Shown here: piece by piece, positions 31,368 through 49,083 of the stretch | How the letters are laid out: each line of letters begins with the position of its first letter | How positions within the stretch are numbered: position 1 is the stretch's first letter | Source of the DNA: an uncultured Ignavibacterium sp. | GTDB taxonomy: Bacteria > Bacteroidota > Ignavibacteria > Ignavibacteriales > Ignavibacteriaceae | Direction: 5' to 3' | NCBI GenBank assembly: GCA_964436775.1 | Contig: CAYTEN010000001.1 | Coordinates: 27,261-91,260, forward strand | DNA: 64,000 nt | Notes under the pieces: generated by a model | What the model was told of the DNA's origin: nothing | Database searches by the model: none | What the model saw: only the letters and a program-made list of their open reading frames with translations | Position numbers and translations under genes: made by a program

Positions 31368-34300
31368 ATGAAAAGCAAAATCTCTTTATTTTTTCTTTTG
31401 ATATCTGCATCATTCCTATCTGCACAGGAAGATATAAAAGTCTTATCTTCAAGTTTCAACTCAGTTACAATCGAATATTCTCCAATTTATGTTGATACTT
31501 CTATAGTTAAAACTGATAATGGAGATTTTAGAAAAGTTGAAATATTAGATGGTGCAATTGATAATTCAAAAAATTGGGGTCTGCCTGCTATTCCTAAACG
31601 AAAAATTAGCGTTGGAGTACCAACCGAGTTTGGAAATATTATTGAGGTTTTATCTTCGGCTTATAAAGAGTTTTCCGGGCAGGTTATTCCAATACCATAT
31701 TTACAACCCGATTCTCAATTTTTTTCATACATTTACAAGAAAAATTCAAATTATTCATCTTTCAATTCTAATGCAGACTTAATATCATTCGGTGAGTTTG
31801 GTTTGTTGCGAGATGTCAATACACAAATTGTTGAGGTTTCTCCCGTAAAGTTTGATGCCTCACTCAATAAAATTAAGCTGTACACCAAAATAGTTTTTAG
31901 AATAAACTTTGGTAACACGGCCACAATTAGCGGCCAGCCAGCAGATGATTTGATAAATGGAGTTCTTGTAAATTATAATGTTGCAAAGTATTGGAATAAA
32001 AATAACACAAATCTTAAAAAAGCTGCCATAACAAATAGTGTACTTTCAGCAGGGAAATGGGTAAGATTTGAGGCGCCTGAAGAAGGGATGTATAAAATTT
32101 CAAGAACAGCGTTATCTACTTTTGGTATTGATCCAAACACAGTTGATCCGAGAACAATAAAAATTTATAATAATGGCGGTAAAACTTTACCGGAAAATAT
32201 AAACTCTTCCCGCCCCATTGATCTTGTAGAAAACGCGATCCAAGTTGTGGGAGAAGAAGATGGCAAATTTGATGATAACGATTATATAATTTTTTATGGC
32301 AGAGGAAGCAGTTTTTGGGATTATGATACTGATGGCACAACGATTACGAGATTTTTTCATCCTTACTCAAAAGTTAATTATTATTGGATTACATCCGGTG
32401 GCGTTAACGGCAAAAGAATAGTCGATAAACCCGGATTGAATACAACGCCTTCGAATACTCAGACTACAACAAAAGCCTTTGCATTCTGGGAAGAAGATAA
32501 AATAAACTTAGGTAAATCTGGTCGTCAATTCCTAGGTGATGATTTTTCTCAATCTGTTAATGCTAGAACTTATATGAATAAACTTGATGGAAGAGTAGCT
32601 ACTTTTCCTATTAGTTATAATTTATATTTTGTGATCGGTTCATCCAGCGGTATGACTCTGACAGTGTCAGAGAATGGCAATCAAATATTTTCACAGAATC
32701 TTAATGGATATGGGACAGCCCCTTATACAGCTGGTTATTCATATTCACGATCGTTTAACTTTAATGGTGATCTGCCTGATAATAGAAGTGTGCTTAGCTT
32801 AAAAGTTTCACCCTCCTCCAATTCAGCCATTGGTTATCTAGGCTATTTCACAATTCAGTACGAAAAAGAATTGAAAGCCTTTGGTGATAATCTTTTATTC
32901 TTTTCCAATCCTATGTCAGGAATTATTGAGTACGATTTAAATGGATTCAGTTCATCTGATATTAAAGTATATGACATTACAAATTATTCGGATGTAAAAC
33001 TTGTTACAAGTTATTCAGTTTTAAGTGGAGGGGATTGTAGATTTCAATTTGATGAAATATCCAATCAGAGATCAAAATATTATGCTGTTGGCAGTGGTGC
33101 TTTTAAAACACCAATCAACCCGGTAGAAGTACAAAATTCCAACTTAAGAGGAGAACCCACTGGCGCAAAGTTTCTAATAATTACTAACAAAAATTTTAAC
33201 GATGCTGCAAACAGTCTTAAAACTTATAAGGAAAACCAAGCTCCGGTAACAATTTCAACTTATGTTGCAGATGTTGATCAGATTTTCAATGAGTTTTCGT
33301 CTGGGATAATGGATCCTACAGCTGTACGCGATTATATAAAATATGCTTTTGACAACTGGCAGATTAAACCACAATTTGTCTTATTATTTGGTAAAGGAAC
33401 TTACGACTATAAAGATGTAGAAGGCTATGGTGATAATTTTGTTCCCACTTGGCAATCCATCGAATCACTTGCACTGATTGATTCATATACAACAGATGAT
33501 TTCTTTGTGCGCGTTTCGGGCACTGATCCGCTTGTAGATCTTTCCCTTGGAAGAATCACTTGTCGGTCAGCCGAGGAAGCAAACGCTATTGTAAATAAAA
33601 TTAAAGACTATGAATTAAATCAGCAGAAGGGCAATTGGAGAAATTTAATAACATTAATTGCTGATGACGGATATACTTCTACAACTTATGAAGGAGCTGA
33701 ACATACTGCTCCATCAGAAGATCTTGCCAGAACTTATTTCCCTAAATCTTTTGATATAAATAAAATTTATAGTGCTGCTTACCCAGATGTTTTAACCGGT
33801 CAAGGAAGACGAAAGCCAACTGTAAATCAAGCGATAATTAATGCGATGAATGATGGGACACTTTTTGTAAATTATATCGGGCACGGAAGCCCTGAGCTTT
33901 GGGCGCATGAAGTAGTTTTTGAGAAGAGCGTATCAATTCCACAATTAAAAAATGATAAATATTTTTTCCTTTGTGCTGCTACTTGTGATTTTGGATATTT
34001 TGATATTCCTAATTTCCAAAGTGCTGCAGAAGCAATGATGTTTTTACCGAACTCAGGAGCCATAGCTTCATTTACAGCAGCTAGGTTAGTTTACTCCGGG
34101 TATAACCATTTACTTAATAATATTTTGGTACAAGCTTTATTTAATTCTGGCCGAGATACTCTAAATTTGGGAATTCCTATTGGAAAAGCTTCATTTATGG
34201 CAAAACAGGTTAGATATGATGTAAATGATCAAAAGTACAATATTTTTGGAGATCCAACACTAAGATTATTAGTTCCACAGTATTCAGCTAATATCGATTC

Positions 34301-35342
34301 TGTAAATGGCCAAGCGCTATCAGCAAACATTCAGATAAAGGCATTAAGTAAATCAAAGATTGAGGGACGAATTTTAAGACCTGACAACACAACGTGGGAT
34401 GATTTTAATGGCGAAGGGTTATTAACCTTTTTTGATTCTGAAAGAACAGTACTTCTTGAACAGATTGGCAATTACCCTGTAACTGTTCAAGGCGGAGTAA
34501 TTTTTAATGGAAGAGTTTCAATTAATAACGGAAAATTTTCTACTGAATTTGTTGTTCCTAAAGATATATCATACGAAAATAAAAATGGTAAAATTATTTT
34601 TTACTTCTTAAATAGTTCTGTTGATGGACTTGGTTTTACAGATAAAGTACTTGTTGGTGGAACCGATAGTTCTGTAGTTAATGATGGTAAAGGTCCTTCG
34701 ATAGAAATATTTTTTGATAACGTTGCATATTCTAATGCATATCTTGTTAATTCAGATCCAAATCTTATAGTAAAACTTTCTGATGAAACCGGACTTAACA
34801 CAACCGGAACAGGAGTCGGACACAAGCTTGAAGGAATATTAAATCAGCAATCAACTGATCCTATAGATTTTACAAATTATTTTAAAGGAGATCTTGATGC
34901 AGATGGTAAAGCTGGTAAAATCAACTATAAGTTTAATAATTTAGGATCAGGTGAATATCAACTCTTAGTTAAGGCTTGGGATGTGTTCAATAATTTTTCG
35001 GAAGAAAATACATTCTTTAGTGTTGTTGAAGACAATGATCTTACAATCAGAGATATTTATAATTACCCTAATCCATTCAGGGAGAAAACCCAATTTACAT
35101 TCCAGCATAACCTTTCAAAACCAATTGATGTTAAAATTAAAGTATATACTATTGCTGGTAGGTTAATTAAAGAAATTGAAAAGGTAAATTTGAACGAAAA
35201 ATTTGTTGTTGTTGATTGGGATGGACGCGATACTGATGGTGACCAATTAGCAAACGGCACTTATCTATACAAAATCATTGTTAAATCTTCTGATGGTGAA
35301 TTTCAAAAAAGTGTTTTAGGCAAATTAGCTGTAATAAGATAA
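31368..35342 (+). CDS. porU: Type IX secretion system sortase PorU (C25 gingipain-like peptidase)
   Basis: C25-type catalytic His/Cys contexts 'VNYIGHGSPELWAHE' and 'FFLCAATCDFGYFD'. C-terminal Por_Secre_tail 'YNYPNPFREKTQFTF...GTYLYKIIVKS'. Immediately upstream of porV, as in Bacteroidota. Confidence 0.8.
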   Translation: MKSKISLFFLLISASFLSAQEDIKVLSSSFNSVTIEYSPIYVDTSIVKTDNGDFRKVEILDGAIDNSKNWGLPAIPKRKISVGVPTEFGNIIEVLSSAYKEFSGQVIPIPYLQPDSQFFSYIYKKNSNYSSFNSNADLISFGEFGLLRDVNTQIVEVSPVKFDASLNKIKLYTKIVFRINFGNTATISGQPADDLINGVLVNYNVAKYWNKNNTNLKKAAITNSVLSAGKWVRFEAPEEGMYKISRTALSTFGIDPNTVDPRTIKIYNNGGKTLPENINSSRPIDLVENAIQVVGEEDGKFDDNDYIIFYGRGSSFWDYDTDGTTITRFFHPYSKVNYYWITSGGVNGKRIVDKPGLNTTPSNTQTTTKAFAFWEEDKINLGKSGRQFLGDDFSQSVNARTYMNKLDGRVATFPISYNLYFVIGSSSGMTLTVSENGNQIFSQNLNGYGTAPYTAGYSYSRSFNFNGDLPDNRSVLSLKVSPSSNSAIGYLGYFTIQYEKELKAFGDNLLFFSNPMSGIIEYDLNGFSSSDIKVYDITNYSDVKLVTSYSVLSGGDCRFQFDEISNQRSKYYAVGSGAFKTPINPVEVQNSNLRGEPTGAKFLIITNKNFNDAANSLKTYKENQAPVTISTYVADVDQIFNEFSSGIMDPTAVRDYIKYAFDNWQIKPQFVLLFGKGTYDYKDVEGYGDNFVPTWQSIESLALIDSYTTDDFFVRVSGTDPLVDLSLGRITCRSAEEANAIVNKIKDYELNQQKGNWRNLITLIADDGYTSTTYEGAEHTAPSEDLARTYFPKSFDINKIYSAAYPDVLTGQGRRKPTVNQAIINAMNDGTLFVNYIGHGSPELWAHEVVFEKSVSIPQLKNDKYFFLCAATCDFGYFDIPNFQSAAEAMMFLPNSGAIASFTAARLVYSGYNHLLNNILVQALFNSGRDTLNLGIPIGKASFMAKQVRYDVNDQKYNIFGDPTLRLLVPQYSANIDSVNGQALSANIQIKALSKSKIEGRILRPDNTTWDDFNGEGLLTFFDSERTVLLEQIGNYPVTVQGGVIFNGRVSINNGKFSTEFVVPKDISYENKNGKIIFYFLNSSVDGLGFTDKVLVGGTDSSVVNDGKGPSIEIFFDNVAYSNAYLVNSDPNLIVKLSDETGLNTTGTGVGHKLEGILNQQSTDPIDFTNYFKGDLDADGKAGKINYKFNNLGSGEYQLLVKAWDVFNNFSEENTFFSVVEDNDLTIRDIYNYPNPFREKTQFTFQHNLSKPIDVKIKVYTIAGRLIKEIEKVNLNEKFVVVDWDGRDTDGDQLANGTYLYKIIVKSSDGEFQKSVLGKLAVIR

Positions 35343-35451
35343 GTTATTACTAAAAAAATGGGTTTCTTGTAATTGTTCTTTTATATATTTAACTCTTAAA
35401 ATCGAATTAAAAAAAGATTAACATATAATTATATATTTCGGAGGAAATAAA

Positions 35452-36645
35452 ATGAAAATAATTCTTAGGCTAATGATGATCAGCATGTTGTTCGGCTTAT
35501 TGGGTGCTGTATCGTATGGACAAGGTGAATCTGCTGTTCCATTTCTGTTACTAGCTCCCGATTCACGCGCCGGTGGTCTAGGTGAATCTGGTACCGGTCT
35601 AGCAGATAATTCTTCTGCTATTTTTTGGAATCCTGCAGGAATTGCATTTCAAACTGGAACAGAGGTTAGCATTACGCATAGTAATTGGTTACCCCAATTT
35701 AATCTGGATTTATTCTACGACTACCTTACCTATAAGCAATATATTGAAGAGTTGAGTGGAAGTATTACTGGTAGCATAACTTATATGAATTTTGGTGAAT
35801 TTGTAAGAACAGGCGAGAATGATCCAACACCGCTTGGAACATTTAGATCATTTGATGCAGCTCTTACACTTGGTTATGCAACAAAGGTTTCTTCTGATTG
35901 GGGATTGGGGCTTAATTTTAGAATAATTCATAGCCGTTTATCAGATCAAGGTGTTGGTGAAGAAAAAGGGCAAGGTGTAGCAACTTCTGTAAGCTTTGAT
36001 GTTGCTACGATGTGGAGACCGGATAAATTTGTTATACCACTCATCGATGAAGATATTGGTAATAAAATAAGTCTTGGTATTAATCTAAGCAATTTGGGTC
36101 CAAAAATTTATTATATAGATAAAGCTCAAGCTGACCCTATCCCAACTAATTTCCGGTTAGGTTTTGCATATAAAGTAATATCTGATGAATTCAATAGTTT
36201 GATCTATACATTGGATTTTAGCAAACTTCTTGTAAACAAAACTACAACCCAGGTAATTTCCGGTACAGATACTTCAACAGTTTCTCATTCAGATGAATGG
36301 TACAAAGCTATATTTACAGCTTGGGGCAATAAACCATTTCGAGAAGAACTAAGAGACATTGTAACTTCAATGGGACTAGAATACTGGTATGGAACTCCAG
36401 GTGATTTTCTTTTTGCTTTAAGAACAGGGTTCTTTTATGAAGATCCATCTTATGGAAATAGAAAATTTGTTACTTTCGGTGCCGGTATTAGATATGACAT
36501 TTACGGTTTTGATTTCAGTTACATTACAACATCAGTTTTTAAAGGTGGAGAAAACCATCCGCTATCGGACACTTTGAGATTTACTGTACTAATTGGTTGG
36601 GGTGCTGTTCCGGAATCAACCGGAGGATTGCCAAGGGGAATCTAA
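35452..36645 (+). CDS. porV: T9SS outer-membrane shuttle/channel protein PorV (LptO)
   Basis: Signal peptide then 'ESAVPFLLLAPDSRAGGLGESGTGLADNSSAIFWNPAGIAF', the characteristic PorV/PorQ N-terminal motif. Beta-barrel strands end in an aromatic-rich C-terminus. Confidence 0.85.
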   Translation: MKIILRLMMISMLFGLLGAVSYGQGESAVPFLLLAPDSRAGGLGESGTGLADNSSAIFWNPAGIAFQTGTEVSITHSNWLPQFNLDLFYDYLTYKQYIEELSGSITGSITYMNFGEFVRTGENDPTPLGTFRSFDAALTLGYATKVSSDWGLGLNFRIIHSRLSDQGVGEEKGQGVATSVSFDVATMWRPDKFVIPLIDEDIGNKISLGINLSNLGPKIYYIDKAQADPIPTNFRLGFAYKVISDEFNSLIYTLDFSKLLVNKTTTQVISGTDTSTVSHSDEWYKAIFTAWGNKPFREELRDIVTSMGLEYWYGTPGDFLFALRTGFFYEDPSYGNRKFVTFGAGIRYDIYGFDFSYITTSVFKGGENHPLSDTLRFTVLIGWGAVPESTGGLPRGI

Positions 36646-36651
36646 TTTAGT

Positions 36652-39600
36652 ATGAATAAAGTTCTTCTTTCCATTGCTGTTTGTATTATTACTTTGGGCA
36701 GTTTATCTGCCCAAAGTTTTGTTGGAAAAATTAATCCTTTCCCAAATCAATCTGTTCAAGCTGCTACTGATGATACAATTAAAATTTTAGCTGTTATGGT
36801 CAACTTTCAGGAAGATCGCGATGGTGCTACGTTTGGCAATGGTAAATTCGGATCTATTTATTCTAAAGATTATAGTAATGATATTCTTGATCCGTTACCG
36901 CACAATAAAGAATATTTTGAATCCCATCTTACATTTGTGAAAAATTATTATCAAAACGTATCAGAAGGTAAAGTTCACCTTTCGTTTACAGTTCTGCCGG
37001 ATACTTTTTCAGTTTCTAAAACTATGAGAAACTTTGCACCCGATATTAATTCTAGTGATTTTACGACACTTGGACAATTCGCGCAAGAAGTTTGGACAAA
37101 AGCTGATCAGATGAATCCTGGTTTTAAATTTTCTGATTATAATGTATTTCTAATTTTTCATGCAGGAGTTGGACGAGATATTTCTTTACCTGGAAGTTTA
37201 GGAAATGAGCGAGATTTACCTTCAGTTTATATAAGTGAAAACTCTCTTAAAAATATTTTTGGACAAAGCTTTGATGGGTTTCCTGTATCAAATGGATCTT
37301 TTAAAATTAAAAACAGCATGGTTATTCCGGAAACAGAAAGTAGAGAACTCGATGGTATTTCAGGAAAAGTTTTATTCGAAATAACAATAAATGGTTTGTT
37401 AGTGGCTAGTGTTGCAAGCCATTTAGGTTTGCCAGATCTTTTTGATACTGCAACAGGATTAAGCGCCATAGGAAGATTTGGTTTGATGGATGGACAAGCC
37501 ATCTTTGCTTATAACGGATGCTTTCCACCAGAGCCATCTGCTTGGGAAAAAATATATTTAGGATGGGCAGAACCTGTTACTGTTAATCCTGGTAATTATG
37601 ATATAGATCTGGTAACAAAATTAGCAGCAACAGTATCCGATACTGTTATTTTAAAAGTGCCTCTAAACTCATCCGAGTATTATTTAATTGAAAACAGACA
37701 GAGGGATGCTTTGAAAGATGGAGCAAAAGTAACTATTAAATCTAACGGTAATAATTTCACAAAAACTTTTCTAAATGATACAACCGGATTTTATAGTTAT
37801 AATACTGACTCGTTGTCAGGTGTGATTGAAGATGTAGATGAATATGATTGGGCTTTGCCTGGCAATGGAATTGTTATTTGGCACATAGATCAAAATGTTA
37901 TCGATGAAAAAATAGCTGACAACAAAATCAATACAAATAAAACAAGACGTGGTGTGGATGTTGAAGAAGCTGACGGTGTGCAGGATATTGGAGAAACCTT
38001 TACAACAATATTTGGTGATCAAGTAGTGGGTGAAGGAACCGCACAAGATTTTTGGTATGCAAACAACAAAGCAAAACTATATAAAAATAGATTTGATAAA
38101 GATACAAGACCAAATACAAACACAAATACTGGCGCAAATAGTTTAATTAGCTTCAATAATTTTTCTTCAATCTCAAACAAAATGTCTTTTAAATTAGAGT
38201 ATGGAGATTCGGTTATTAAACCGATCTTTGCGAAAGAAATTAATTTTCAATATCCAGTTTATAATTTATCCAAAGGATCAAACCCCAACAAAAATCAATT
38301 CTGTTTTTTAGTGGGTACAGATTTAATAATTTTTGAAGATGATACAAAAATAGATTCAATACCCGAATTTTCATCATTCAAGATATCTTCAGTTTACTTC
38401 AATAATACTACCTATTATGTTGGAACTTTAGAAAATAAGCTTAATGTTTTTATGGATAATGGCACTCAACAATATTTATCTCGTTTTTCATTAAATACAG
38501 TAATAGATGCTCCACCATTGATTGTAAAAGATCCTATTGATAATTATAAAATTTTGATTGCAACGGATGATCAAAAAATCATTTCTTATTCGTTAGGCAG
38601 TTTACCATCAAACAATCCAGATACTCTAAGAATTCAAACTTTCCCAACTGATGTTAGGTTCTCTAAAGTAGCTTCAGATGGAAATGAAGTTGTTGCAATT
38701 GGAAGTAATCTTATTAATCTCTATAATCCTTACTCCTTAATTGTTGCAGATGGATTTGAGTATAAATTAAATAATGAAAGATTTATCGACTTAGCTTTAA
38801 GCAAAGATGCGGAGAATAAATCTATTTATGTGGCACTGACTGCTGATAATAATTTTTATATTTTTGTCGATAAAAAACTCTATTCAACTTTTTCATTGCC
38901 ATCATCAGTTCCAATAATTTCATTTTCGCTTGTTGATTTGAAACAAGATGGAAATAATTATATTGTTTTCACAGATGGTAAAAAACTTGAGGCTAGAAAT
39001 TTAACTGGCGCTTCAGCCATCAATTTCCCAAAGTCAGATCCTCAGGGCAATAACTTTGTTGGGACTCCATTGGCTATGGATTTTGAAGGAGGAAATAATG
39101 CTGAGATTATATCTTATACTAAAGATGGGAGAATATTTGCTTTTGATGGCAATACAGGAAAAATTGTAAATGGTTTCCCGATCAGTGTTGGCAATAATAT
39201 TGATGTTATCCCTGTCCTTTTTAATAGTAATAATAAATCATCTTTAGCAGTAATAGACAGTAAAAAATATTTCTCTACATGGAATATCGGATCTACTGTG
39301 GGAACATTATTCTGGGCAGAAGAAAACGACGACAACCAAAATACATCTTTTGTAACTGCTGCAAAAAATTCAAATTTCATAAATCAGTTTTTCCCTACAA
39401 GTCGTGCTTATAATTATCCAAATCCTGTTTATAATGGACAAACAGCAATACGTTATTACGTTGATGAAGATTCTAAAATAAATATTAAAATTTTTGATCT
39501 TGCCGGAGGATTAGTTGCCGAATTAAATAATGAGGCAAGAGGTGGATATGATAATGAAACTATTTGGAAAGTCAGTGATATTCAAAGTGGAGTTTATCTT

Positions 39601-39672
39601 GCAAGAATTGAAGCGATTGGAATCAGTGGAAAATCAGAATCTGTTATAATTAAAATTGCTGTGGTGAAATAA
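36652..39672 (+). CDS. M6 (immune inhibitor A)-like domain protein with degenerate active site, beta-propeller-like repeats and T9SS C-terminal domain
   Basis: 'IKILAVMVNFQEDRDG' and 'SHLGLPDLFDT...GLMDG...PSAWEKIYLGW' resemble M6 peptidases. No HExxH occurs anywhere in the ORF. C-terminal 'YNYPNPVYNGQTAIRYYV...GVYLARIEA...IKIAVVK' is a Por_Secre_tail. Confidence 0.6.
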   Translation: MNKVLLSIAVCIITLGSLSAQSFVGKINPFPNQSVQAATDDTIKILAVMVNFQEDRDGATFGNGKFGSIYSKDYSNDILDPLPHNKEYFESHLTFVKNYYQNVSEGKVHLSFTVLPDTFSVSKTMRNFAPDINSSDFTTLGQFAQEVWTKADQMNPGFKFSDYNVFLIFHAGVGRDISLPGSLGNERDLPSVYISENSLKNIFGQSFDGFPVSNGSFKIKNSMVIPETESRELDGISGKVLFEITINGLLVASVASHLGLPDLFDTATGLSAIGRFGLMDGQAIFAYNGCFPPEPSAWEKIYLGWAEPVTVNPGNYDIDLVTKLAATVSDTVILKVPLNSSEYYLIENRQRDALKDGAKVTIKSNGNNFTKTFLNDTTGFYSYNTDSLSGVIEDVDEYDWALPGNGIVIWHIDQNVIDEKIADNKINTNKTRRGVDVEEADGVQDIGETFTTIFGDQVVGEGTAQDFWYANNKAKLYKNRFDKDTRPNTNTNTGANSLISFNNFSSISNKMSFKLEYGDSVIKPIFAKEINFQYPVYNLSKGSNPNKNQFCFLVGTDLIIFEDDTKIDSIPEFSSFKISSVYFNNTTYYVGTLENKLNVFMDNGTQQYLSRFSLNTVIDAPPLIVKDPIDNYKILIATDDQKIISYSLGSLPSNNPDTLRIQTFPTDVRFSKVASDGNEVVAIGSNLINLYNPYSLIVADGFEYKLNNERFIDLALSKDAENKSIYVALTADNNFYIFVDKKLYSTFSLPSSVPIISFSLVDLKQDGNNYIVFTDGKKLEARNLTGASAINFPKSDPQGNNFVGTPLAMDFEGGNNAEIISYTKDGRIFAFDGNTGKIVNGFPISVGNNIDVIPVLFNSNNKSSLAVIDSKKYFSTWNIGSTVGTLFWAEENDDNQNTSFVTAAKNSNFINQFFPTSRAYNYPNPVYNGQTAIRYYVDEDSKINIKIFDLAGGLVAELNNEARGGYDNETIWKVSDIQSGVYLARIEAIGISGKSESVIIKIAVVK

Positions 39673-39694
39673 TCTCCGTTTACAACTCACAACT

Positions 39695-42124
39695 TTGACC
39701 TTATACTCTATGAAATTCTTTTTAATAATATCATTTCTCTTATTTTTCGTCACCAATAGTTTTGCCCAGTTTACAGACTTTCATCCTGAACTCGAGTGGT
39801 ACACAATAAAAGGTAAACATGCTGATATTCATTTTCACGATGAGGCAGAAAGAACAGCTCAGGTTGTAGCAAAAATTGTAGATGAAGTATGGGATCCAAT
39901 TTGTTCGCTCTACGGCTATGAACCTGATAGAGTTCATTTTATAATAAAAGATATTGATGACTACTCAAACGGTGCCACCTATTTTTTTGATAACAAAATT
40001 GAGATTTGGACATGTGCATTAGATTTTGATTTACGTGGAGCACATAATTGGCTAAGAAATGTTATCTCCCACGAGTTTACACATATGGTTCAAATCCAGT
40101 CCGCTATGAAAGCGTCCAGAAGTGTTCCCGCATTATTTTTACAAGTGCTTACTTATGAGGATAAAAGAAGGCCGGATATTCTTTATGGATTCCCAAATGT
40201 TGTAGTGTCATATCCTTTAGCAATGATTAACGTGCCTGCCTGGTTTGCTGAAGGAACCGCACAATATATGAGAAAGGAATTTAATTATGATAACTGGGAT
40301 TCGCATCGTGATATGATTTTGCGTTCTTATGCATTAGATAATAATATGCTTACGTGGAATGAAATGGGTGTATTTGGTAAAACAAGTTTGGGCAATGAAT
40401 CAGTATATAATTCGGGTTTTGCTTTAACAAGTTATATCTCACAAAAATATGGTGAAGATAAGCTAAGAGATATAACTAAAGCTTTAGGAAATTTTGGAAA
40501 TTTTACTATTGATGCAGCTTTTAAAGATGTAATAGGTAAGAATGGAAACGAGATTTACGATGAGTGGAGCAGCTTCTTAAAAAATGATTACCGTAAACGT
40601 AGTCAAAAAGTATTATCAAATTTAGTTACCGGCGAACAGATTGCTAAAGAAGGGTTTGGAAATTTCTATCCGATCTTTTCTAAAGATGGTAAAAAAGTTT
40701 ATTACATCTCAAATAAATCATCAGATTACTTTGCACCTTCAGGAATATATGAATACGATCTAATATCTAAAACTGAAAAAAATATTGTTAGCGGTGTCAG
40801 ATCAACATTTTCTTTTACTCCAGATGGAAATAAAATAATTTATGCCAAAATCACCGAAGATAATCCTGAATGGTACAATGTTCATGATTTATTTGTTCAT
40901 GATTTAACTTCTGAAAAGGAAACCAGGTTAACAGAAGATCTTCGGGCAAATCAACCATCAATTTCGAATGACGGAAAGCACATTGTTTTCATTTATCAAA
41001 AGGACGGTACTACCAATCTTGGCTCAGTAGATGTGGATGGGAAAAACTTTAAACGATTGACATTTTTTGAAAATGGGGAACAGGTTTATAATCCAAAATT
41101 CTCTCCGGATGATTCTTACATTGTATTTGATTATTCTTATGCAAATACTCGAGATATTGCAAAGGTTAATTCAACCGGAGGAAATGTAGAATTTATAATT
41201 GCTTCTGGTCATGATACTAGAAATCCCACCTTCGATAAAAATGGTAAACTAATTTATTCATCTGATGAAACCGGTATTTTCAATCTATACGCTATGGATC
41301 TTCATACAAAAAATATAAGACAGTTAACCAATGTTCTTGGTGGTGCTTTTATGGCAAACGCATCGGATGATGGCGATATAGTTTATTCAGGTTATACTTC
41401 TGCCGGATATAAGATCTTCAATATCGATTTGGATGAACAAAAGAATATAATTAAAGGGGATGATTATGTTAAGTTAAAAAATCCGCCTTTGAATATTGAC
41501 AAACCTTTAGGCGATATTAATAATTTTAATATTGTTTCATTAAAAAATTATGATGATAAAAATTTAACTGATCTGCCAAAAGAGAAATATACTGGTGCAT
41601 TTTCTCGTTTAACATTTTTTCCATTCTTACGTTTTGATAATTACAATACAGGAAATAGCTTATTAGAAAAATTTAAGCCAGGTCTATTAGTTGCCTCAAG
41701 TGATATGCTTAACAGATATGCAATATTTGCCGGTGGTTCCATCAATACAAGATTAGAAAGAGATTTGTTTTTAATTTTTGATTATAAAAATAAACTTCCG
41801 TTGTTAACATCAATCGGATTAAGACCAGAATTATCATTAGAGCTTTACAGTATTAGCCGAAAAGCAGATGTCGATGTTTCCTTTGGTGCTGATACTACTG
41901 GTGGAACTGTTAATTATGATTTTATTATTCCAACTAGTGTTACTTATGATTTGTTTGAATTTGATTTCATTGTCCGCCATAGATTATTCTCTCGAGATCA
42001 AAATTTACAGTTAAAATTTACTTTCAGTACTTATACAGCAACTCTTGGCAGCTTTATTCTACCTGATGTGCAGAATACTCTATATCCAACTACTAAGGAT
42101 AATTATTTTAGGAAGAAATCTTGA
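39695..42124 (+). CDS. HExxH peptidase-like domain + TolB/PD40-type beta-propeller protein (5' part of a frame-broken gene)
   Basis: Signal peptide from the ATG at 39710 ('MKFFLIISFLLFFVTNSFAQ'). 'VISHEFTHMVQ' gives HExxH at 40070..40084. PD40-like repeats 'FTPDGNKIIYA', 'SISNDGKHIVFIY', 'FSPDDSYIVFDY', 'PTFDKNGKLIYSS'. Ends at a TGA shortly after the frame break. Confidence 0.7.
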   Translation: MTLYSMKFFLIISFLLFFVTNSFAQFTDFHPELEWYTIKGKHADIHFHDEAERTAQVVAKIVDEVWDPICSLYGYEPDRVHFIIKDIDDYSNGATYFFDNKIEIWTCALDFDLRGAHNWLRNVISHEFTHMVQIQSAMKASRSVPALFLQVLTYEDKRRPDILYGFPNVVVSYPLAMINVPAWFAEGTAQYMRKEFNYDNWDSHRDMILRSYALDNNMLTWNEMGVFGKTSLGNESVYNSGFALTSYISQKYGEDKLRDITKALGNFGNFTIDAAFKDVIGKNGNEIYDEWSSFLKNDYRKRSQKVLSNLVTGEQIAKEGFGNFYPIFSKDGKKVYYISNKSSDYFAPSGIYEYDLISKTEKNIVSGVRSTFSFTPDGNKIIYAKITEDNPEWYNVHDLFVHDLTSEKETRLTEDLRANQPSISNDGKHIVFIYQKDGTTNLGSVDVDGKNFKRLTFFENGEQVYNPKFSPDDSYIVFDYSYANTRDIAKVNSTGGNVEFIIASGHDTRNPTFDKNGKLIYSSDETGIFNLYAMDLHTKNIRQLTNVLGGAFMANASDDGDIVYSGYTSAGYKIFNIDLDEQKNIIKGDDYVKLKNPPLNIDKPLGDINNFNIVSLKNYDDKNLTDLPKEKYTGAFSRLTFFPFLRFDNYNTGNSLLEKFKPGLLVASSDMLNRYAIFAGGSINTRLERDLFLIFDYKNKLPLLTSIGLRPELSLELYSISRKADVDVSFGADTTGGTVNYDFIIPTSVTYDLFEFDFIVRHRLFSRDQNLQLKFTFSTYTATLGSFILPDVQNTLYPTTKDNYFRKKS

Positions 42125-42830
42125 AGCAAGATATACATGGAAAGCCATTTTACCATCGAAGGATGCTGAAATAAATCCTGTTGGATTCTCAATTGATCTC
42201 GCATACAATTATGAGTTTAATAAATTTAACGATAAAGGTGAGTACACAATAGAAGATGGGATTCTTAAACCACGTTACTCAAATTATAATTTTCACCGGG
42301 TAGAATTAAAAACAGGATTGTATTTACCTGTTTTTGACTCTCACACAATTAATACCTCTTTAAGAGTTGGTTCAATACTTGGGCCACAACAACCTGATTT
42401 TTTTGATTTTTACTTGGGCGGATTAATTGGAATGAAAGCTTATCCCTTTTATGCTATCAGCGGAAATGAAATTGCATGGTTAGACTTTACATACCGTTTC
42501 CCGCTCTTCAGAGATATTGATGCAAAGATTGGGCATCTTTATTTAGATAAAATATTTCTTTCTTTTAATGGAGATATCGGCAACGCCTGGACTGGAAATT
42601 TATCTTCTGCCGGAAAATTTAAAAAAGGTGTGGGAGCAGAATTAAGATTGCAGTTAAATTCTTATTATCTATTTCCCACAAGTATTTTCTTTAATGCATC
42701 TTATGGGTTTGATGAATTTTCTAGAGTTATTAATAATCAAACCATAAAGTATGGCAAAGAATGGAATTTTTATGGTGGTGTTTTATTCGGGTTTGATATC
42801 TTAAATTTTAATAAACCGTTCAGACAGTGA
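42045..42830 (+). CDS. Omp85/surface-antigen-like beta-barrel segment (3' part of the same frame-broken gene)
   Basis: No signal peptide of its own, and the listed start is a TTG. 'YLGGLIGMKAYPFYAISGNEIAWLDFTYRFPLF' and 'GVGAELRL...FFNASYGF' resemble Bac_surface_Ag barrels. The reading frame continues the upstream ORF after a +1 shift near 42106..42112. Confidence 0.6.
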   Translation: MAALFYLMCRILYIQLLRIIILGRNLEARYTWKAILPSKDAEINPVGFSIDLAYNYEFNKFNDKGEYTIEDGILKPRYSNYNFHRVELKTGLYLPVFDSHTINTSLRVGSILGPQQPDFFDFYLGGLIGMKAYPFYAISGNEIAWLDFTYRFPLFRDIDAKIGHLYLDKIFLSFNGDIGNAWTGNLSSAGKFKKGVGAELRLQLNSYYLFPTSIFFNASYGFDEFSRVINNQTIKYGKEWNFYGGVLFGFDILNFNKPFRQ

Positions 42831-42844
42831 TAGAAAGAATTGAG

Positions 42845-43705
42845 ATGAAAAATATTTTTTTGATTTTTATTATCTTTACCGCATTTACTTTTGCACAGCA
42901 AAAAAGTGATGCAAATTTATTCACAGGTAATTTATCTGTCGATGCGAAGACCATCTTAGACAATTATAAAGAACACTTAACTCCCCAAATGACAATTATA
43001 AATAGCAATAAAAAATCGCCCTTGTTGGCGGGAATTTTTTCTTTGCTGATACCCGGCGCTGGTGAACTTTATACTGGAGAATATTTGAAAGCGGGGATAT
43101 TTGTTGCTTTAGAGGCAGCAGTTGTTGGGACTGCAATTGTTTATGATAATAAAGGTAATAAAAAAACAAATGAGTTTCAGGATTATGCCGACGCTTATAA
43201 GAATCCTGAGCACAATTGGAGTGTAGTGAGATATGCTGAATGGCTTGTTCTATACGAAGGAGCCGATCGAAATAAAATAATAATAAGTGAAGACCCAAAT
43301 ATACCACCTTGGGAAAGAGTAAACTGGAAAGAATTAAATTCTGCTGAAACAGGTTCACATCACTTACCACCCCATGGTGAGCAACAATATTATGAACTGA
43401 TTGGAAAATATCATCAATATTCTTCTGGCTGGAATGACTTTATTGGTGGCGGTAATAAAGAAATAATATCACCGAATTATCATTTTTATTCACAAATGAG
43501 AGGAGATGCAAATAGTTTTTATTCTGTTGCATCAACAGCTGTAATTGGTATTTATGTTAATCACTTTTTAAGTGTGCTGGATGCAGTTTGGTCATCTATT
43601 CAATACAATAAAGACATTACTGTTAATGTAAGATTAGAAAATATCCAGGTTACAGAATATCGATCTGAATTTTATCCGGTTATGCACATTACCTACAATT
43701 TTTAG
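42845..43705 (+). CDS. Secreted/membrane protein of unknown function (DUF5683-like N-terminal motif)
   Basis: Signal peptide 'MKNIFLIFIIFTAFTFAQQ'. 'SPLLAGIFSLLIPGAGELYTGEYLKAGIF' resembles the DUF5683 motif. The listed GTG start at 42827 overlaps the previous stop. Confidence 0.45.
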   Translation: MKNIFLIFIIFTAFTFAQQKSDANLFTGNLSVDAKTILDNYKEHLTPQMTIINSNKKSPLLAGIFSLLIPGAGELYTGEYLKAGIFVALEAAVVGTAIVYDNKGNKKTNEFQDYADAYKNPEHNWSVVRYAEWLVLYEGADRNKIIISEDPNIPPWERVNWKELNSAETGSHHLPPHGEQQYYELIGKYHQYSSGWNDFIGGGNKEIISPNYHFYSQMRGDANSFYSVASTAVIGIYVNHFLSVLDAVWSSIQYNKDITVNVRLENIQVTEYRSEFYPVMHITYNF

Positions 43706-43848
43706 CTTGTTTAACAACTGATATTATGAAATATCTCAATGGAATAAATTGAGAGATGTGTTTGTTAAATAACTTGATGATTGTTAATAGATTAAATCTT
43801 AATAATTGAACTTTTCATTCCCACTTCATTATTTTATATTTTTTAACT

Positions 43849-45159
43849 ATGAAATTACCTTTAGTTGCAATAGTAGGCAGGCCCAACGTAGGAAAATCTA
43901 CACTTTTTAACAGATTGTTAGGGAAAAGGGAAGCCATAGTTGATGATAAAAGCGGTGTAACACGCGATAGAAATTACGGCGAGTGTGAATGGAACGGAAA
44001 AATGTTCAGATTGATAGATACCGGTGGCTTTGTTCCTGAATCAACTGATCAATTTGAATCTGCGATTCGTGAACAAGTTGAAGTAGCTGTTAATGAGGCT
44101 GATGCAATTATTTTTCTTGTTGATTTAAAGGCTGGCGTAAATCCAATCGATAACGTTATTATTAACATGCTCAGGCAATCCAATAAAAAATATTATTTAG
44201 TTGTTAATAAAGTAGATGCCGAAGTGCATGTTGCTGCTGCATCTGATTTTTATTCTTTGGGTGTTGACACGATCTATGATATTTCTGCAGTAAGCGGGAG
44301 ACACACAGGAGATTTGCTAGACGGAATCACCCAAGATTTTCCAACAATGGATTTGATTGAAGAAGATAAACGATTAAAGATTGCAATTGTTGGAAGACCG
44401 AATGTCGGTAAATCATCTTTAACCAATGCTCTGTTAGGGAGTACACGAAGTATTGTCACAGATATTCCAGGAACAACACGTGATAGTCTCGACTCAGTAT
44501 TGAAATATTATAGTGAAGAAATTATCTTGATTGATACAGCAGGATTAAGGAAAAAGAAAAAAATTGAAGAGAGTATTGAATTTTTCTCAAACATCAGAAC
44601 ATATAAAGCTATTAGCGAAAGTGATGTAGCTGTTGTAATGATTGAAGCTAAAGTTGGATTTGAAAAACAAGATCAAAAAATTATTGATGAAGTTGTTAGA
44701 TGGAGGCGGGGTTTAATAATAGCAGTTAATAAATGGGATCTAGTGGAGAAAGAAACAAATACAGCTCGAGAATTTGAAAAAACAATTAAAGAAAAATTAG
44801 GTACAGTAGATTATGCCCCAATAATATTTATTTCTGCGTTAACAAAGCAAAGAATATTTAAACTGCTTGAACTTTGCCAAAAAATTCAGAGTGATAGAGT
44901 AAAAAAGATTCCTACGTCAGAACTAAATGATACTTTATTACCAGAGATTGAAAAAAATCCACCTCCCGCATCACCAACCGGAAAAGATGTGAGGATTAAA
45001 TTTATTTCTCAAGTGGGCGAACATTATCCTATATTTTTATTTTTTGCCAATTTCCCCAAATATATTCCGGACCATTACCGTAGATTTTTAGAAAGATTAA
45101 TTAGAAGAACTTATGGTTTCGAAGGTGTTCCGATCACAGTTAGTTTTAGGCAAAAATAA
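43849..45159 (+). CDS. der: Ribosome-associated GTPase Der (EngA)
   Basis: Two G domains ('GRPNVGKSTLFN', 'DTGG'; 'GRPNVGKSSLTN', 'DTAG', 'NKWD') plus a KH-like C-terminus. Confidence 0.95.
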   Translation: MKLPLVAIVGRPNVGKSTLFNRLLGKREAIVDDKSGVTRDRNYGECEWNGKMFRLIDTGGFVPESTDQFESAIREQVEVAVNEADAIIFLVDLKAGVNPIDNVIINMLRQSNKKYYLVVNKVDAEVHVAAASDFYSLGVDTIYDISAVSGRHTGDLLDGITQDFPTMDLIEEDKRLKIAIVGRPNVGKSSLTNALLGSTRSIVTDIPGTTRDSLDSVLKYYSEEIILIDTAGLRKKKKIEESIEFFSNIRTYKAISESDVAVVMIEAKVGFEKQDQKIIDEVVRWRRGLIIAVNKWDLVEKETNTAREFEKTIKEKLGTVDYAPIIFISALTKQRIFKLLELCQKIQSDRVKKIPTSELNDTLLPEIEKNPPPASPTGKDVRIKFISQVGEHYPIFLFFANFPKYIPDHYRRFLERLIRRTYGFEGVPITVSFRQK

Positions 45160-45173
45160 ACAGTAATAATATT

Positions 45174-45803
45174 ATGAATAAAAATTTTTTTCTCATAGAG
45201 CATCCCATAATTAAAAGGGATGTTACTATTTTGCGAGATGTTAATACCACTTCTGAAACATTTCGTGCAGCCTTACAGAGAGTATCAAACATTTTAGCCG
45301 TTGAGATATCAAAAAACTTTAAACTTTCAGCAATCAATGTTGAAACTCCGCTCGAAGAAACATCAGGATCAAAATTAACACACGATGTAATTCTCGTCCC
45401 TGTCTTAAGGGCTGGTCTTGGAATGGTGAACGGATTTCTGCAGATCATTCCAGAAGCAAAAGTGGGACATATAGGATTGCAACGAGATGAGGAAACACTG
45501 AAACCCATAGAATATTACTACAAAGTTCCCAAAAATTTGAAAATGGCTGAAGTAATTATGATTGATCCGATGCTTGCTACTGGCGGAAGCGCATCTGAAG
45601 CATTAAAGTATCTTAAACAAAGAGGTGCAACAAAATTAGTATTCGCTTGTCTTGTTGCTGCCCCTGAAGGAATAAAAAGAATTGAAAAGAATCATCCGGA
45701 TATCAAAATATTTGCAGCCGCTTTAGATCGTGAATTAAACAGCAAAGGTTATATTCTTCCCGGATTAGGAGACGCAGGTGATAGAACATTTGGTACACTT
45801 TAA
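45174..45803 (+). CDS. upp: Uracil phosphoribosyltransferase
   Basis: 'LVPVLRAGLGM', PRPP loop 'IMIDPMLATGGSA', and 'YILPGLGDAGDRTFGT'. Confidence 0.95.
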   Translation: MNKNFFLIEHPIIKRDVTILRDVNTTSETFRAALQRVSNILAVEISKNFKLSAINVETPLEETSGSKLTHDVILVPVLRAGLGMVNGFLQIIPEAKVGHIGLQRDEETLKPIEYYYKVPKNLKMAEVIMIDPMLATGGSASEALKYLKQRGATKLVFACLVAAPEGIKRIEKNHPDIKIFAAALDRELNSKGYILPGLGDAGDRTFGTL

Positions 45804-46818
45804 TTCTAAAAAAATATTTGTTTTTTTATCCCTCTTCGCCCTCACACAAATTTCTGCTCAAGTTTATCCGGATAAGTCAATTCATAATACTTTAAAGGCT
45901 GGTATTAAATTAATTGTTGAGCAAAAATATAATGATGCACAAAAATTATTTGATCAATTCGATAAATCAAGGAGTGATCTGCCACTAGGTAAAATCTATT
46001 TGGCTGCAACTCAAATTGCAAAATGCTTCGATTATCAAGAACCTTTTAATGATGAATTAATTACGCCTTATTTGGAAAGTGCTAAAAGTATTTCTGAATC
46101 GTTGTTAAATAAAGATGATAAAAATATTTGGTATAATTACTTTTTTGCTTTAACACAGGGTTATATTGCCTATTACGATGCTCTAAAGGAAGATTGGTTT
46201 TCGGCATTTTCAAATGGGTTAATTTCGGTTAGAGCTTTTGATTATTGCTTAGAGCTGGATCAAAATTTTTATGAATCTTTTATAGCAATTGGTAATTATA
46301 AATTTTGGCGAAGTAAAAAAACTGAATTCTTGAATTGGCTGCCATTTGTACCTGATGAAAAAGAACTTGGGATAGATTATCTTAAAAAAGCAATTAATCA
46401 ATCAGGATATAATTCACATCTTGCAATTCATTCACTAATTTGGATATACATTGAGCAAGAGGAATATTCTAAGGCAATCGAGATTGCAGATTCGGCGCTT
46501 AAAAGGAATCCTCAATCGAGACTTATCAAATGGGGATTAGCAAGAGCTTATGAAAATGTTGAGCCTGTAAAAGCGGTTGCACTATATGGAGAAATATTGC
46601 TCTCTTATCCAACTGACCTAATATTAAATAAAATAAATGAGGTTACACTTAAACATTTGATTGCTCAACAAGAGGCTAAATTAGGCAAAAAACAGCAAGC
46701 ACTTGATCTTTGTAACGAAATTCTTGGCATAAAAGGATATAATGACTTTGAACTTAATAAACTAAACAATAGACTTGGTAGGGTAAGGGATCTGAAAAAC
46801 GAACTGATGCTAAAATAA
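45778..46818 (+). CDS. Secreted helical (TPR-like) protein of unknown function
   Basis: Hydrophobic signal-like 'KKIFVFLSLFALTQISAQ' then helical repeats. The start codon is uncertain: the listed GTG overlaps the upp end. Confidence 0.5.
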   Translation: MIEHLVHFNSKKIFVFLSLFALTQISAQVYPDKSIHNTLKAGIKLIVEQKYNDAQKLFDQFDKSRSDLPLGKIYLAATQIAKCFDYQEPFNDELITPYLESAKSISESLLNKDDKNIWYNYFFALTQGYIAYYDALKEDWFSAFSNGLISVRAFDYCLELDQNFYESFIAIGNYKFWRSKKTEFLNWLPFVPDEKELGIDYLKKAINQSGYNSHLAIHSLIWIYIEQEEYSKAIEIADSALKRNPQSRLIKWGLARAYENVEPVKAVALYGEILLSYPTDLILNKINEVTLKHLIAQQEAKLGKKQQALDLCNEILGIKGYNDFELNKLNNRLGRVRDLKNELMLK

Positions 46819-46911
46819 TTTTTTCTAATTGACCCATCTCGCCCTTTAACAATTCATTAAAAAAAATTAAATTGATTCCGATTTATAAAACGTTGTATAG
46901 TATTTATCAAT

Positions 46912-49083
46912 ATGTCTGTCAGTAATCCAAAATATCAAAAAATGCTTGACAATCTTTTGAGGATTTGCAAAACGAGTTTACCAAAAGTAGACGAAGCAAT
47001 GATAACAAAGGCTTTTGAGCTAAGTTTAGAAGCGCACAAGAACGATAGGCGTGCTTCTGGAGAACCATATTTTACGCATCCTTATGAAGTAGCAATGGTA
47101 GTTGCTGAAGAATTTCCTCTTGATGATATTACTATTGTTAGTGCTTTATTGCATGATGTGATTGAAGATACTGAGTTTGATTTCGATCTTATCCGAAGAG
47201 AATTTGGGAAAGAGATTGCTGAAATTGTTGATGGTGTTACAAAGATAAGCGGCATATTTCGTGGACACGATATAACAAAAGCGGAGAACTACCGTAAACT
47301 TTTACTTTCAATGGTTAAAGATGTTAGAGTAATTTTAGTAAAATTTGCTGATCGTCTTCATAATATGCGAACATTAGAGTTTGTAAATCCGGATAAGCAA
47401 AGAAGAATAGCCCAGGAGACTTTAGAAATCTATGCACCATTTGCACATCGATTTGGTTTAGGAAAAGTTAAATGGGAACTGGAAGATCTTTCATTCAAAT
47501 ACTTAAATCGTGAAGCTTATGAAGAGCTTGCAAGAAAATTAAAAGCCAAAAGAAAAGACCGTGAGTCATATATAAAAAAGTTTTCAGATCCACTTATAAA
47601 AAATCTTAACGAAGCAAAAATAAAATTTGAAATGAGTGGCAGGGTAAAACATTTATATAGCATTTACAGAAAAATGGTAAGAAGAAACAAACCATTTGAA
47701 GAGATTTATGATCTATTTGCAATAAGGATTATTCTTGATACAGCTAATCGAAACGATTGTTACACAACTTTGGGTATTGTCAATCAAATCTATCTACCCG
47801 TTCCTGATAGATTTAAGGATTATATTTCTATCCCAAAAACAAATAACTATCAATCAATTCATACAACAGTTGTAGGCCCTGAGGGTAGACTTGTTGAGAT
47901 ACAAATACGTACAAACCAAATGCACGAGGTAGCTGAAAAAGGTGTAGCTGCTCACTGGCGTTATAAAGAAAACAAAACAGTTTCTGATGGTGAACTGGAA
48001 AATTGGGTTAATTGGATTCGGGACATTTTTGAAAATGCTTCGAAAGATGATCAGAAAAAAGAATTATTAGAAAATTTCAAACTTAATCTTTACCAAGATG
48101 AAATTTACGTTTTTACACCTAAAGGTGATTTAAAGAGATTACCAGTTGCCTCAACTCCTGTGGATTTTGCATTTGACATTCATAGTAAAGTTGGATTCCA
48201 TTGTATAGGCGCTAAAATTGATGGTAAAATAGTTCCCCTGGATACAGAATTACACAGCGGCGATCAAGTTGAAATTATTAGTTCAAAGAATCAACATCCA
48301 AACAAAAACTGGATAAAATTTGTTAAGACTCAAAAAGCAAAAAATGAAATAAGGAAATGGTTAAATAAAGAAGAGCAGACTATTGTAAACAGCGGTATGG
48401 AAATATGGGAAAAGAAATTAAAAAAAATGAAGTTATCTTTTACACCTGATAATGTCTTACAAATTGCTCATTCTAATAAGTTTGATAATTCAAGACAATT
48501 CTACAAGGCAATAGCTCAAAATCAAATTAATATTGATGAAGTGCTAACGGCCACAACAGAAAAGAATAAAAAGGAATTCGAAAAGGATGCCGAGTTCGAT
48601 AAGTTTGCAAACGTAGCTAGAACGGATATAGGTGGGATTTTAGTTGATGGAAAGAAATCAAGTATACTTTACAACTATGCTAAATGTTGTAATCCCATTC
48701 CTGGTGATCCTGTGATTGGTTATATTACAGTAGGTGAGGGGATAAAAATACATCGTAAAACGTGTGCTAATCTAATTAATTTATCCTCAAATGACGCAAG
48801 TAAGTTAGTCAGTGTGCAATGGCCGGAAGCAGAAGGATCACTATTTGTAGCTGGTATTTCTATTAAAGGTAAAGATAGACCAGGAATTCTTAACGATGTT
48901 TCGCATTCAATAGTAACATTTCAAAACACGAATATTAAATCAATAAATATAAATACCAGTGATTCAGTGTTTGAAGGCAGCGTAACAGTTTATGTAAACA
49001 ATCTTGATCATCTTAATAGAATAATAGAAAGATTAAAAAAAGTTCAAGGTATTTTTAATGTCGAAAGATTCGAAAGTAATTGA
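46912..49083 (+). CDS. relA: Bifunctional (p)ppGpp synthetase/hydrolase RelA/SpoT homologue
   Basis: HD hydrolase 'LLHDVIEDT', synthetase 'LYSIYRKM...IYDLFAIRIIL' and 'YQSIHTTV', TGS 'IYVFTPKGD', and a C-terminal ACT-like domain. Confidence 0.95.
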   Translation: MSVSNPKYQKMLDNLLRICKTSLPKVDEAMITKAFELSLEAHKNDRRASGEPYFTHPYEVAMVVAEEFPLDDITIVSALLHDVIEDTEFDFDLIRREFGKEIAEIVDGVTKISGIFRGHDITKAENYRKLLLSMVKDVRVILVKFADRLHNMRTLEFVNPDKQRRIAQETLEIYAPFAHRFGLGKVKWELEDLSFKYLNREAYEELARKLKAKRKDRESYIKKFSDPLIKNLNEAKIKFEMSGRVKHLYSIYRKMVRRNKPFEEIYDLFAIRIILDTANRNDCYTTLGIVNQIYLPVPDRFKDYISIPKTNNYQSIHTTVVGPEGRLVEIQIRTNQMHEVAEKGVAAHWRYKENKTVSDGELENWVNWIRDIFENASKDDQKKELLENFKLNLYQDEIYVFTPKGDLKRLPVASTPVDFAFDIHSKVGFHCIGAKIDGKIVPLDTELHSGDQVEIISSKNQHPNKNWIKFVKTQKAKNEIRKWLNKEEQTIVNSGMEIWEKKLKKMKLSFTPDNVLQIAHSNKFDNSRQFYKAIAQNQINIDEVLTATTEKNKKEFEKDAEFDKFANVARTDIGGILVDGKKSSILYNYAKCCNPIPGDPVIGYITVGEGIKIHRKTCANLINLSSNDASKLVSVQWPEAEGSLFVAGISIKGKDRPGILNDVSHSIVTFQNTNIKSININTSDSVFEGSVTVYVNNLDHLNRIIERLKKVQGIFNVERFESN

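What the first reader, a model, noticed from the sequence alone, without database searches (positions are those of the whole stretch)
42045..42124. +1 reading-frame break at TTT-AGG inside a peptidase/propeller/beta-barrel gene
Seen: ORF 39695..42124 stops at the TGA at 42122, five codons after '...GAT AAT TAT TTT AGG AAG AAA TCT TGA'. The +1 frame is open across this point and continues 'GRNLEARYTWKAILPSK...' into a 240-aa Omp85-like barrel segment. That segment has no signal peptide and only a TTG 'start' at 42045. Reading ...D-N-Y-F then skipping A42110 gives a continuous protein of about 1040 aa; one extra T in the T4 run at 42106..42109 would give '...DNYFLGRNLE'. Three explanations are possible. 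It could be a homopolymer sequencing or assembly error. It could be a recent pseudogenising deletion. It could be a programmed +1 shift, since a slippery U-rich P-site codon followed by an AGG codon recalls the yeast Ty1 CUU-AGG-C site, if AGG is rare here.
Basis: seen in the sequence. Interest (0 to 1): 0.6.

Follow-up and report, generated by a model that had tools for sequence, protein, structure and literature searches.

The report
Two-base deletion splits one conserved gene
The frame break is real in this assembly, but it comes from a two-base deletion found only here, in a gene that is intact in near-identical and related genomes, so it is an ordinary error or recent mutation and not programmed frameshifting.

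Summary
ORF 39710..42124 stops at TGA 42122, and the +1 frame continues to 42830.

The cause is a 2-bp deletion private to this assembly.
- Five metagenome contigs are 99.93-99.95% identical to window 34710..47830. They read TTT ATA GGA where the window reads TTT A-- GGA, and they encode one intact 1040-aa protein.
- That gap is the only indel in 13 kb.
- All 20 congeners fetched also carry one intact ORF (DNYF[I/N]G).

Programmed +1 shifting is not supported.
- The break is not conserved.
- AGG is not rare (10% of Arg codons), and a tRNA-Arg(CCU) gene is present.
- In-frame TTT-AGG occurs at chance frequency (85 observed, 92.5 expected).
- A shifted product would lack a residue that all 50 aligned homologues have.

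The break lies in the middle of a beta-strand of a C-terminal Omp85-like barrel, so two working halves are implausible.

I therefore cannot say whether the deletion is an assembly error (about 50%) or a real, very recent loss-of-function allele (about 45%).

The gene is a WD40-Omp85-type protein in a conserved porU-porV cluster. Earlier notes of this scan described the same family on other DNA.

The parts
39710..42124 (+). Upstream part of the broken gene (804 aa from ATG 39710; a TTG at 39695 is also in frame). It holds a signal peptide, an HExxH MA-peptidase-like domain, a TolB-like propeller and the first ~7.5 strands of the barrel. It ends at TGA 42122, five codons after the deletion.
   Evidence: (the 804-aa product is on record from one contig only)
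42106..42110 (+). Site of the 2-bp deletion. The window reads TTTTA-GG where five 99.9%-identical contigs read TTTTATAGG, so one TA of TATA (codon ATA, Ile801) is lost.
42015..42121 (+). Stretch in which frame 0 and frame +1 are both open. Alignment to homologues places the switch at 42109/42110.
42111..42830 (+). Downstream part in frame +1 (GRNLEARYTWK... to the stop at 42828-42830). It forms the second half of the Omp85-like barrel and is identical in protein sequence to residues 802-1040 of the intact allele P0003. The TTG 42045 and ATG 42066 'starts' lie in out-of-frame reading of conserved sequence.
31368..39672 (+). Upstream neighbours in the conserved cluster: porU (31368..35342), porV (35452..36645) and a T9SS-dependent M6-like inactivated metalloprotease (36652..39672).
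42827..43705 (+). Downstream neighbour, a DUF5683-like protein that overlaps the end of the broken gene by 4 nt. It is conserved in this position in 7 of 7 relatives checked.

Best explanation
This is one gene for a ~1040-aa outer-membrane protein: signal peptide, HExxH peptidase-like domain, TolB-like propeller and C-terminal Omp85-like barrel. In this assembly alone it has lost one TA unit of the sequence TTT-ATA-GGA. The 2-bp loss moves the reading frame by +1. Translation ends five codons later at TGA 42122. The remaining 239 codons, the second half of the barrel, are left without a start codon or signal peptide.

Nothing about the site is a recoding signal. It is a plain deletion.

Shown: the deletion, its privacy to this assembly, and the intact state in all close and distant relatives.

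Inferred: the truncated product cannot form a closed barrel.

My odds within this explanation are about 50% assembly or consensus error and about 45% real, very recent loss-of-function allele.
For: 1. Five contigs from five metagenome assemblies are 99.93-99.95% identical to window 34710..47830. They differ by 1-7 substitutions each and exactly one gap, 2 bases at 42108/42109. All encode the intact 1040-aa P0003.
2. The fused window protein equals P0003 at all 1039 shared residues and lacks only Ile801.
3. In the protein collection the truncated 804-aa and 254-aa products occur on one contig. Intact or partial products reading through the site occur on 9 contigs.
4. All 20 congeners fetched have one open frame of 1043-1059 codons between stops, with DNYF[I/N]G and TTT-AxT/AxC-GGx at the site. 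All 41 genomes of the order have the gene.
5. All 50 aligned homologues have a residue at position 801, and D797, Y799 and G802 are invariant.
6. Seven of the 8 substitutions in the 13 kb are synonymous, so the region is under purifying selection and the frame break is the outlier.
7. The break falls inside strand 795-814 of the barrel.
Against: No reads could be inspected, so error and real allele cannot be told apart.

A 2-bp loss at only two TA units is not a typical short-read error.

The assembly is not riddled with indels. About 3 of ~430 orthologues compared are broken by something other than N gaps. That rate is compatible with either source.

Both halves remain perfectly conserved, which is also what a functional recoded gene would show.
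Confidence: 0.96

Rival explanations
1. Sub-case A of the best explanation: the deletion exists only in the assembly, as a consensus or graph error, and the organism's gene is intact.
For: - The gene is core (41 of 41 genomes), sits in a conserved porU-porV cluster and shows no other decay.
- A second frameshift in this assembly, A9 at G000 C5 ~33150, is also private. A 99.945%-identical metagenome contig has A8 with an open frame, and that is the only gap in 9 kb.
- Both indels seen in 22 kb of comparison break conserved coding frames. That pattern fits unfiltered errors better than polymorphism filtered by selection.
- The assembly is fragmented (273 contigs) and has N gaps with duplicated flanks.
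Against: - A 2-bp deletion outside a long repeat is an unusual short-read error.
- The overall rate of non-N frame breaks is low, about 0.7% of genes compared.
- The assembly carries its own synonymous substitutions, so it represents a genuinely distinct strain that could carry its own indel.
Confidence: 0.5
2. Sub-case B of the best explanation: the deletion is real in the sampled population. It is a very recent slipped-strand loss of one TA that inactivates the gene or leaves a truncated periplasmic product.
For: - Loss of one unit of a short tandem repeat is a standard spontaneous mutation.
- The assembly has four private substitutions in the same 13 kb.
- The low background of broken genes argues against systematic indel error.
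Against: - The gene is kept intact in all 20 congeners fetched, in the 16 order-level genomes searched (one split only across two contigs) and in 5 conspecific contigs.
- No second lesion has accumulated.
- mutS and mutL are intact, so there is no sign of a mutator background.
Confidence: 0.45
3. Programmed +1 ribosomal frameshift at UUU-AGG. The ribosome stalls on AGG, tRNA-Phe slips to the +1 frame, and a full-length protein is made.
For: - Both frames are open across the site, and the downstream part is perfectly conserved.
- The site has a superficial likeness to the yeast Ty1 CUU-AGG-C site (my own knowledge).
Against: - The break is absent from 5 contigs of 99.9% identity and from 20 congeners, so the 'site' was created by a deletion in this one assembly.
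- AGG makes up 10% of Arg codons (3.6 per 1000) and is commoner than CGG or CGC. A tRNA-Arg(CCU) gene is present.
- In-frame TTT-AGG occurs 85 times in long ORFs against 92.5 expected, so it is not avoided.
- After a +1 slip, tRNA-Phe(GAA) would face UUA with a G:A clash at the wobble position, unlike Ty1 tRNA-Leu(UAG) (established knowledge, inference).
- The shifted product would lack residue 801, which all 50 homologues have.
Confidence: 0.02
4. Two separately translated, functional proteins: a soluble peptidase-propeller and a stand-alone barrel.
For: Gene callers did output two products of 804 aa and 254 aa.
Against: - The split falls in the middle of a beta-strand of a single barrel domain.
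- The first 15-22 residues of the downstream ORF are an out-of-frame reading of conserved sequence. It has no signal peptide, and no Shine-Dalgarno-like purine run is visible in the 20 bases before either candidate start.
- No relative has this arrangement.
Confidence: 0.01

Closest known systems
Ordinary frameshift lesion (assembly indel or young pseudogene)
   Same: It is a 2-bp loss in a short tandem or AT-rich context with a premature stop a few codons later. It is private to one assembly, and the intact allele is present in the same species.
   Different: Nothing differs. The only open point is whether the lesion is in the DNA of the cells or only in the consensus.
Programmed +1 frameshift sites (bacterial prfB CUU-UGA-C; yeast Ty1 CUU-AGG-C)
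   Same: A U-rich codon is followed by AGG, and the +1 frame is open.
   Different: - It is not conserved in any orthologue.
- The A-site codon is neither rare nor a stop.
- The P-site tRNA cannot re-pair well in the +1 frame.
- The codon pair is common in ordinary genes of this genome.
- The product would be one residue shorter than every homologue.
WD40-Omp85 subfamily of the Omp85/TpsB superfamily (Heinz & Lithgow 2014, PMC4104836)
   Same: This concerns the gene itself. A C-terminal Omp85-type barrel is preceded by a TolB-like beta-propeller instead of POTRA domains.
   Different: - This protein also carries an N-terminal HExxH MA-peptidase-like domain.
- It sits in a conserved porU-porV cluster.
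- No function has been tested.

Membership tests
Programmed +1 ribosomal frameshift site | The frame break and shift site are conserved among orthologues | tested here: not met
   None of 5 conspecific contigs and none of 20 congeners has the break. All read TTT-AxT/AxC/ATA-GGx in one frame.
Programmed +1 ribosomal frameshift site | A slowly decoded A-site codon (rare sense codon with a scarce tRNA, or a stop) | tested here: not met
   AGG is 10.2% of Arg codons (3.57 per 1000) in 1160 long ORFs, and a tRNA-Arg(CCU) gene is present.
Programmed +1 ribosomal frameshift site | The shift-prone codon pair is avoided in ordinary genes | tested here: not met
   In-frame TTT-AGG: 85 observed, 92.5 expected.
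Programmed +1 ribosomal frameshift site | The shifted product corresponds to the family's conserved protein | tested here: not met
   The product would lack residue 801, which all 50 aligned homologues have. The Y799-G802 spacing is invariant.
Programmed +1 ribosomal frameshift site | A full-length protein is actually made (junction peptide, ribosome profiling) | not testable with these tools
Real pseudogene (lesion present in the organism) | The lesion is supported by the underlying reads | not testable with these tools
Real pseudogene (lesion present in the organism) | Further decay (extra stops, indels, excess non-synonymous change) | tested here: not met
   Both halves are identical in protein sequence to the intact allele P0003. 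The one substitution in the gene is synonymous.
WD40-Omp85 subfamily (Omp85/TpsB superfamily) | C-terminal Omp85-type beta-barrel | tested here: met
   AF2 model of residues 620-1040 (pLDDT 75, pTM 0.70). Of the 50 Foldseek PDB hits listed, 48 are BamA barrels and 2 are the TpsB transporters FhaC and CdiB, at E 5e-8 to 1e-5 and TM 0.43-0.58. By sequence alone no Pfam Omp85 model matches at E <= 1, so membership rests on fold.
WD40-Omp85 subfamily (Omp85/TpsB superfamily) | A TolB-like beta-propeller, not POTRA, precedes the barrel | tested here: met
   Pfam PD40 at 4e-15. TolB structures match by sequence and by fold at E ~1e-10. The paper's description was read.

The most novel reading that the evidence does not exclude
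The 2-bp deletion is real, and the strain still makes some full-length protein (minus Ile801) by low-level +1 slippage at UUU-AGG. That would be a newly arisen, unselected 'leaky' frameshift site rescuing a core envelope gene.
Probability: 0.015. Interest if true: 0.5.

Novelty: already known. Interest (0 to 1): 0.07.

Why it matters
It matters mainly for annotation. The two called products (804 aa and 254 aa) should be read as one gene, disrupted or mis-assembled, and not as a recoding event or a novel split protein.

The case also shows that a TTT-AGG frame break in an AT-rich genome can look like a Ty1-type site by chance.

The gene itself is more interesting than the break. It is an unstudied WD40-Omp85 protein with a peptidase-like head, and it is fixed in the porU-porV cluster across this order.

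Tried and rejected
- **Exact-protein look-ups.** Look-ups for two other window genes, meant to extend the conspecific comparison, found nothing on record.
- **A generally error-ridden assembly.** I compared 718 ORFs from 1.2 Mb of a complete congener genome with this assembly by tblastn.
  - Of 11 split orthologues, 8 are caused by N scaffold gaps.
  - Only 3 are caused by real base-level shifts: this gene, an A9 run on C5, and a doubly shifted gene on C73.
  - The reverse control found 0 splits in the congener.
  - The rate of about 0.7% does not discriminate error from mutation.
- **Mutator background.** Rejected, because mutS and mutL are intact.
- **One-T homopolymer error.** Rejected, because adding a T gives a TAG stop.
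- **Whole-protein fold search.** It returned only propeller hits. The barrel had to be modelled on its own.
- **Genome-wide look-up of earlier notes on frameshifts.** It returned nothing.

Full report
**Observation**

- Frame 0 reads ...GAT AAT TAT TTT AGG AAG AAA TCT TGA and stops at 42122-42124.
- Frame +1 is open from 42015 to 42830 and reads ...GRNLEARYTWKAILPSK...
- ORF1 most likely starts at ATG 39710 (MKFFLIISFLLFFVTNSFAQ...), not at the TTG at 39695. That is where the relatives' proteins and the gene callers' product begin.
- One detail is wrong. An extra T in the T4 run produces TTT TAG, a stop. The frame is restored by removing one base or adding two.

**One gene, not two**

I searched 41 genomes of the same order with the joined protein and found a match in all 41.
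- The 20 closest congeners (76-86% protein identity) each have a single open frame of 1043-1059 codons between stops covering both parts.
- At the junction they read DNYF-[I/N]-G-[R/N]-N. That is one more residue than the window, encoded as TTT ATT/ATC/AAT/AAC GGx.

**The lesion is private to this assembly**

- The gene callers' two products (804 aa and 254 aa) are on record from one contig only.
- They fall in a 90% cluster whose representative, P0003, is an intact 1040-aa protein seen on 7 contigs. Two further members also read through the site.
- I fetched five contigs carrying P0003, from five different metagenome assemblies.
- They align to window 34710..47830 at 99.93-99.95% identity with a single gap of 2 bases.
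- The variable columns are 8 substitutions plus that gap at 42108/42109.
- The contigs read TAT TTT ATA GGA AGA, and the window reads TAT TTT A GGA AGA. One TA of TATA is missing.
- The joined window protein is identical to P0003 at all 1039 shared residues.
- Seven of the 8 substitutions are synonymous. The assembly therefore represents a slightly different strain under purifying selection, and the frame break is the odd one out.

**Test of programmed +1 shifting**

- The break is not conserved (above).
- AGG accounts for 10.2% of Arg codons (3.57 per 1000) in 1160 long ORFs. That is more than CGG or CGC. A tRNA-Arg(CCU) gene is present.
- In-frame TTT-AGG pairs occur 85 times against 92.5 expected, so the genome does not treat the pair as hazardous.
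- All 50 aligned homologues have a residue at position 801, and D797, Y799 and G802 are invariant. A shifted product would differ from every known family member.
- From established knowledge, Ty1 shifting depends on tRNA-Leu(UAG) re-pairing from CUU to UUA. Here tRNA-Phe(GAA) would face UUA with a wobble clash. This point is inference.
- I put programmed shifting at about 2%.

**Where the break falls in the protein**

An AlphaFold2 model of P0003, built with 50 homologues, has pLDDT 72. It shows four parts:
- a signal helix;
- a helical domain (residues 30-300) carrying HEFTH;
- a propeller (residues 309-572);
- an all-beta C-terminal region with strands of up to 26 residues.

Sequence and fold searches tie the propeller to TolB.

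I modelled residues 620-1040 alone (pLDDT 75, pTM 0.70). Foldseek matched them to Omp85 barrels: 48 of the 50 listed hits are BamA of Flavobacterium johnsoniae, E. coli or Deinococcus, and two are the TpsB transporters FhaC and CdiB. E values run from 5e-8 to 1e-5 and TM scores from 0.43 to 0.58. No Pfam Omp85 model matches by sequence.

The break at residues 800/801 lies inside strand 795-814, roughly the eighth strand.
- The upstream product would therefore carry half a barrel.
- The downstream ORF would carry the other half. It has no signal peptide, and its first residues come from an out-of-frame reading.
- Two working proteins are implausible.

**Error or real mutation?**

I compared 718 ORFs of at least 200 aa, taken from 1.2 Mb of a complete congener genome, with this assembly.
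- 11 orthologues were split.
- 8 of those splits are caused by N scaffold gaps.
- 3 are caused by base-level shifts: this gene, an A9 run on contig C5, and a doubly shifted gene on C73.
- The reverse comparison found no split in the congener.

I checked the C5 site against a metagenome contig of 99.945% identity.
- That contig has A8 and an open frame.
- The extra A is the only gap in 9 kb.

Both indels found in 22 kb of conspecific comparison are therefore private to this assembly, and both break conserved frames. That pattern leans towards unfiltered error.

Three points lean the other way:
- a 2-bp loss at a two-unit TA repeat is not a typical short-read error;
- the overall break rate of about 0.7% is ordinary;
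- the strain has its own substitutions.

mutS and mutL are intact, so a mutator background is not indicated.

I leave it at about 50% error and 45% real recent allele.

**Context and what is known**

- The neighbours are porU, porV and a T9SS-dependent M6-like inactivated metalloprotease upstream. A DUF5683-like gene and der lie downstream.
- The order porU-porV-M6-like-target-DUF5683-like is kept in 7 of 7 relatives checked across the order. der follows in the five where it was found.
- The family corresponds to the 'WD40-Omp85' cluster of Heinz & Lithgow 2014 (PMC4104836, read).
- Earlier notes of this scan had already described the same fusion in other genomes. One follow-up named that paper and the porU/porV linkage. 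Another note reports an orthologue split by a frameshift at a different position.
- In my own data the orthologues of G009 (one extra base at ...GFP|NF...) and G011 (at least five frame changes) are also broken, each at other sites. No genome shares this site.

**Verdict**

This is an ordinary, non-programmed 2-bp deletion in one assembly. Interest is low.

Noticed in passing
window 31368..45159; also L036-L045 (G018) and L089-L094: The gene order porU, porV, T9SS-dependent M6-like inactivated metalloprotease, the peptidase-propeller-Omp85 gene and a DUF5683-like gene is conserved in 7 of 7 relatives checked across four families of the order; der follows in the five where it was found. This suggests that the unstudied WD40-Omp85-type protein works with the type IX secretion attachment machinery.
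   Followed up: partly
G000 contig C5, about 33100..33200 (outside the window); L046 1531-1578: A second frameshift is private to this assembly. It has an A9 run where a 99.945%-identical metagenome contig has A8 and an open frame. This is the only gap in 9 kb.
   Followed up: yes
G000 contig C73, 1300..2150 (outside the window): A gene matching a 308-aa ORF of the congener changes frame twice within about 80 codons. It is either a true pseudogene or a local cluster of errors.
   Followed up: no
G000 C1 ~92268 (about 1 kb beyond the window's end), C93 ~2460, C34 ~19590, C80, C12, C6, C27, C101: Scaffold gaps of 10 or about 100 N, some with duplicated flanking sequence, shift the reading frame in at least 8 genes. 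These would be mis-called as split genes.
   Followed up: partly
L087 (G009:C1:1777000-1781000) and L088 (G011:C55:103500-107500): The orthologues in two other congeners are also frame-broken, at different places. G009 has one extra base at ...YGFP|NFV... (residue ~162). G011 has at least five frame changes. No genome shares the window's site.
   Followed up: partly
window 42827..43705: The downstream DUF5683-like gene starts at a GTG that overlaps the last 4 nt of the barrel gene. It is kept in that position in all relatives checked, which suggests translational coupling with the full-length gene.
   Followed up: no
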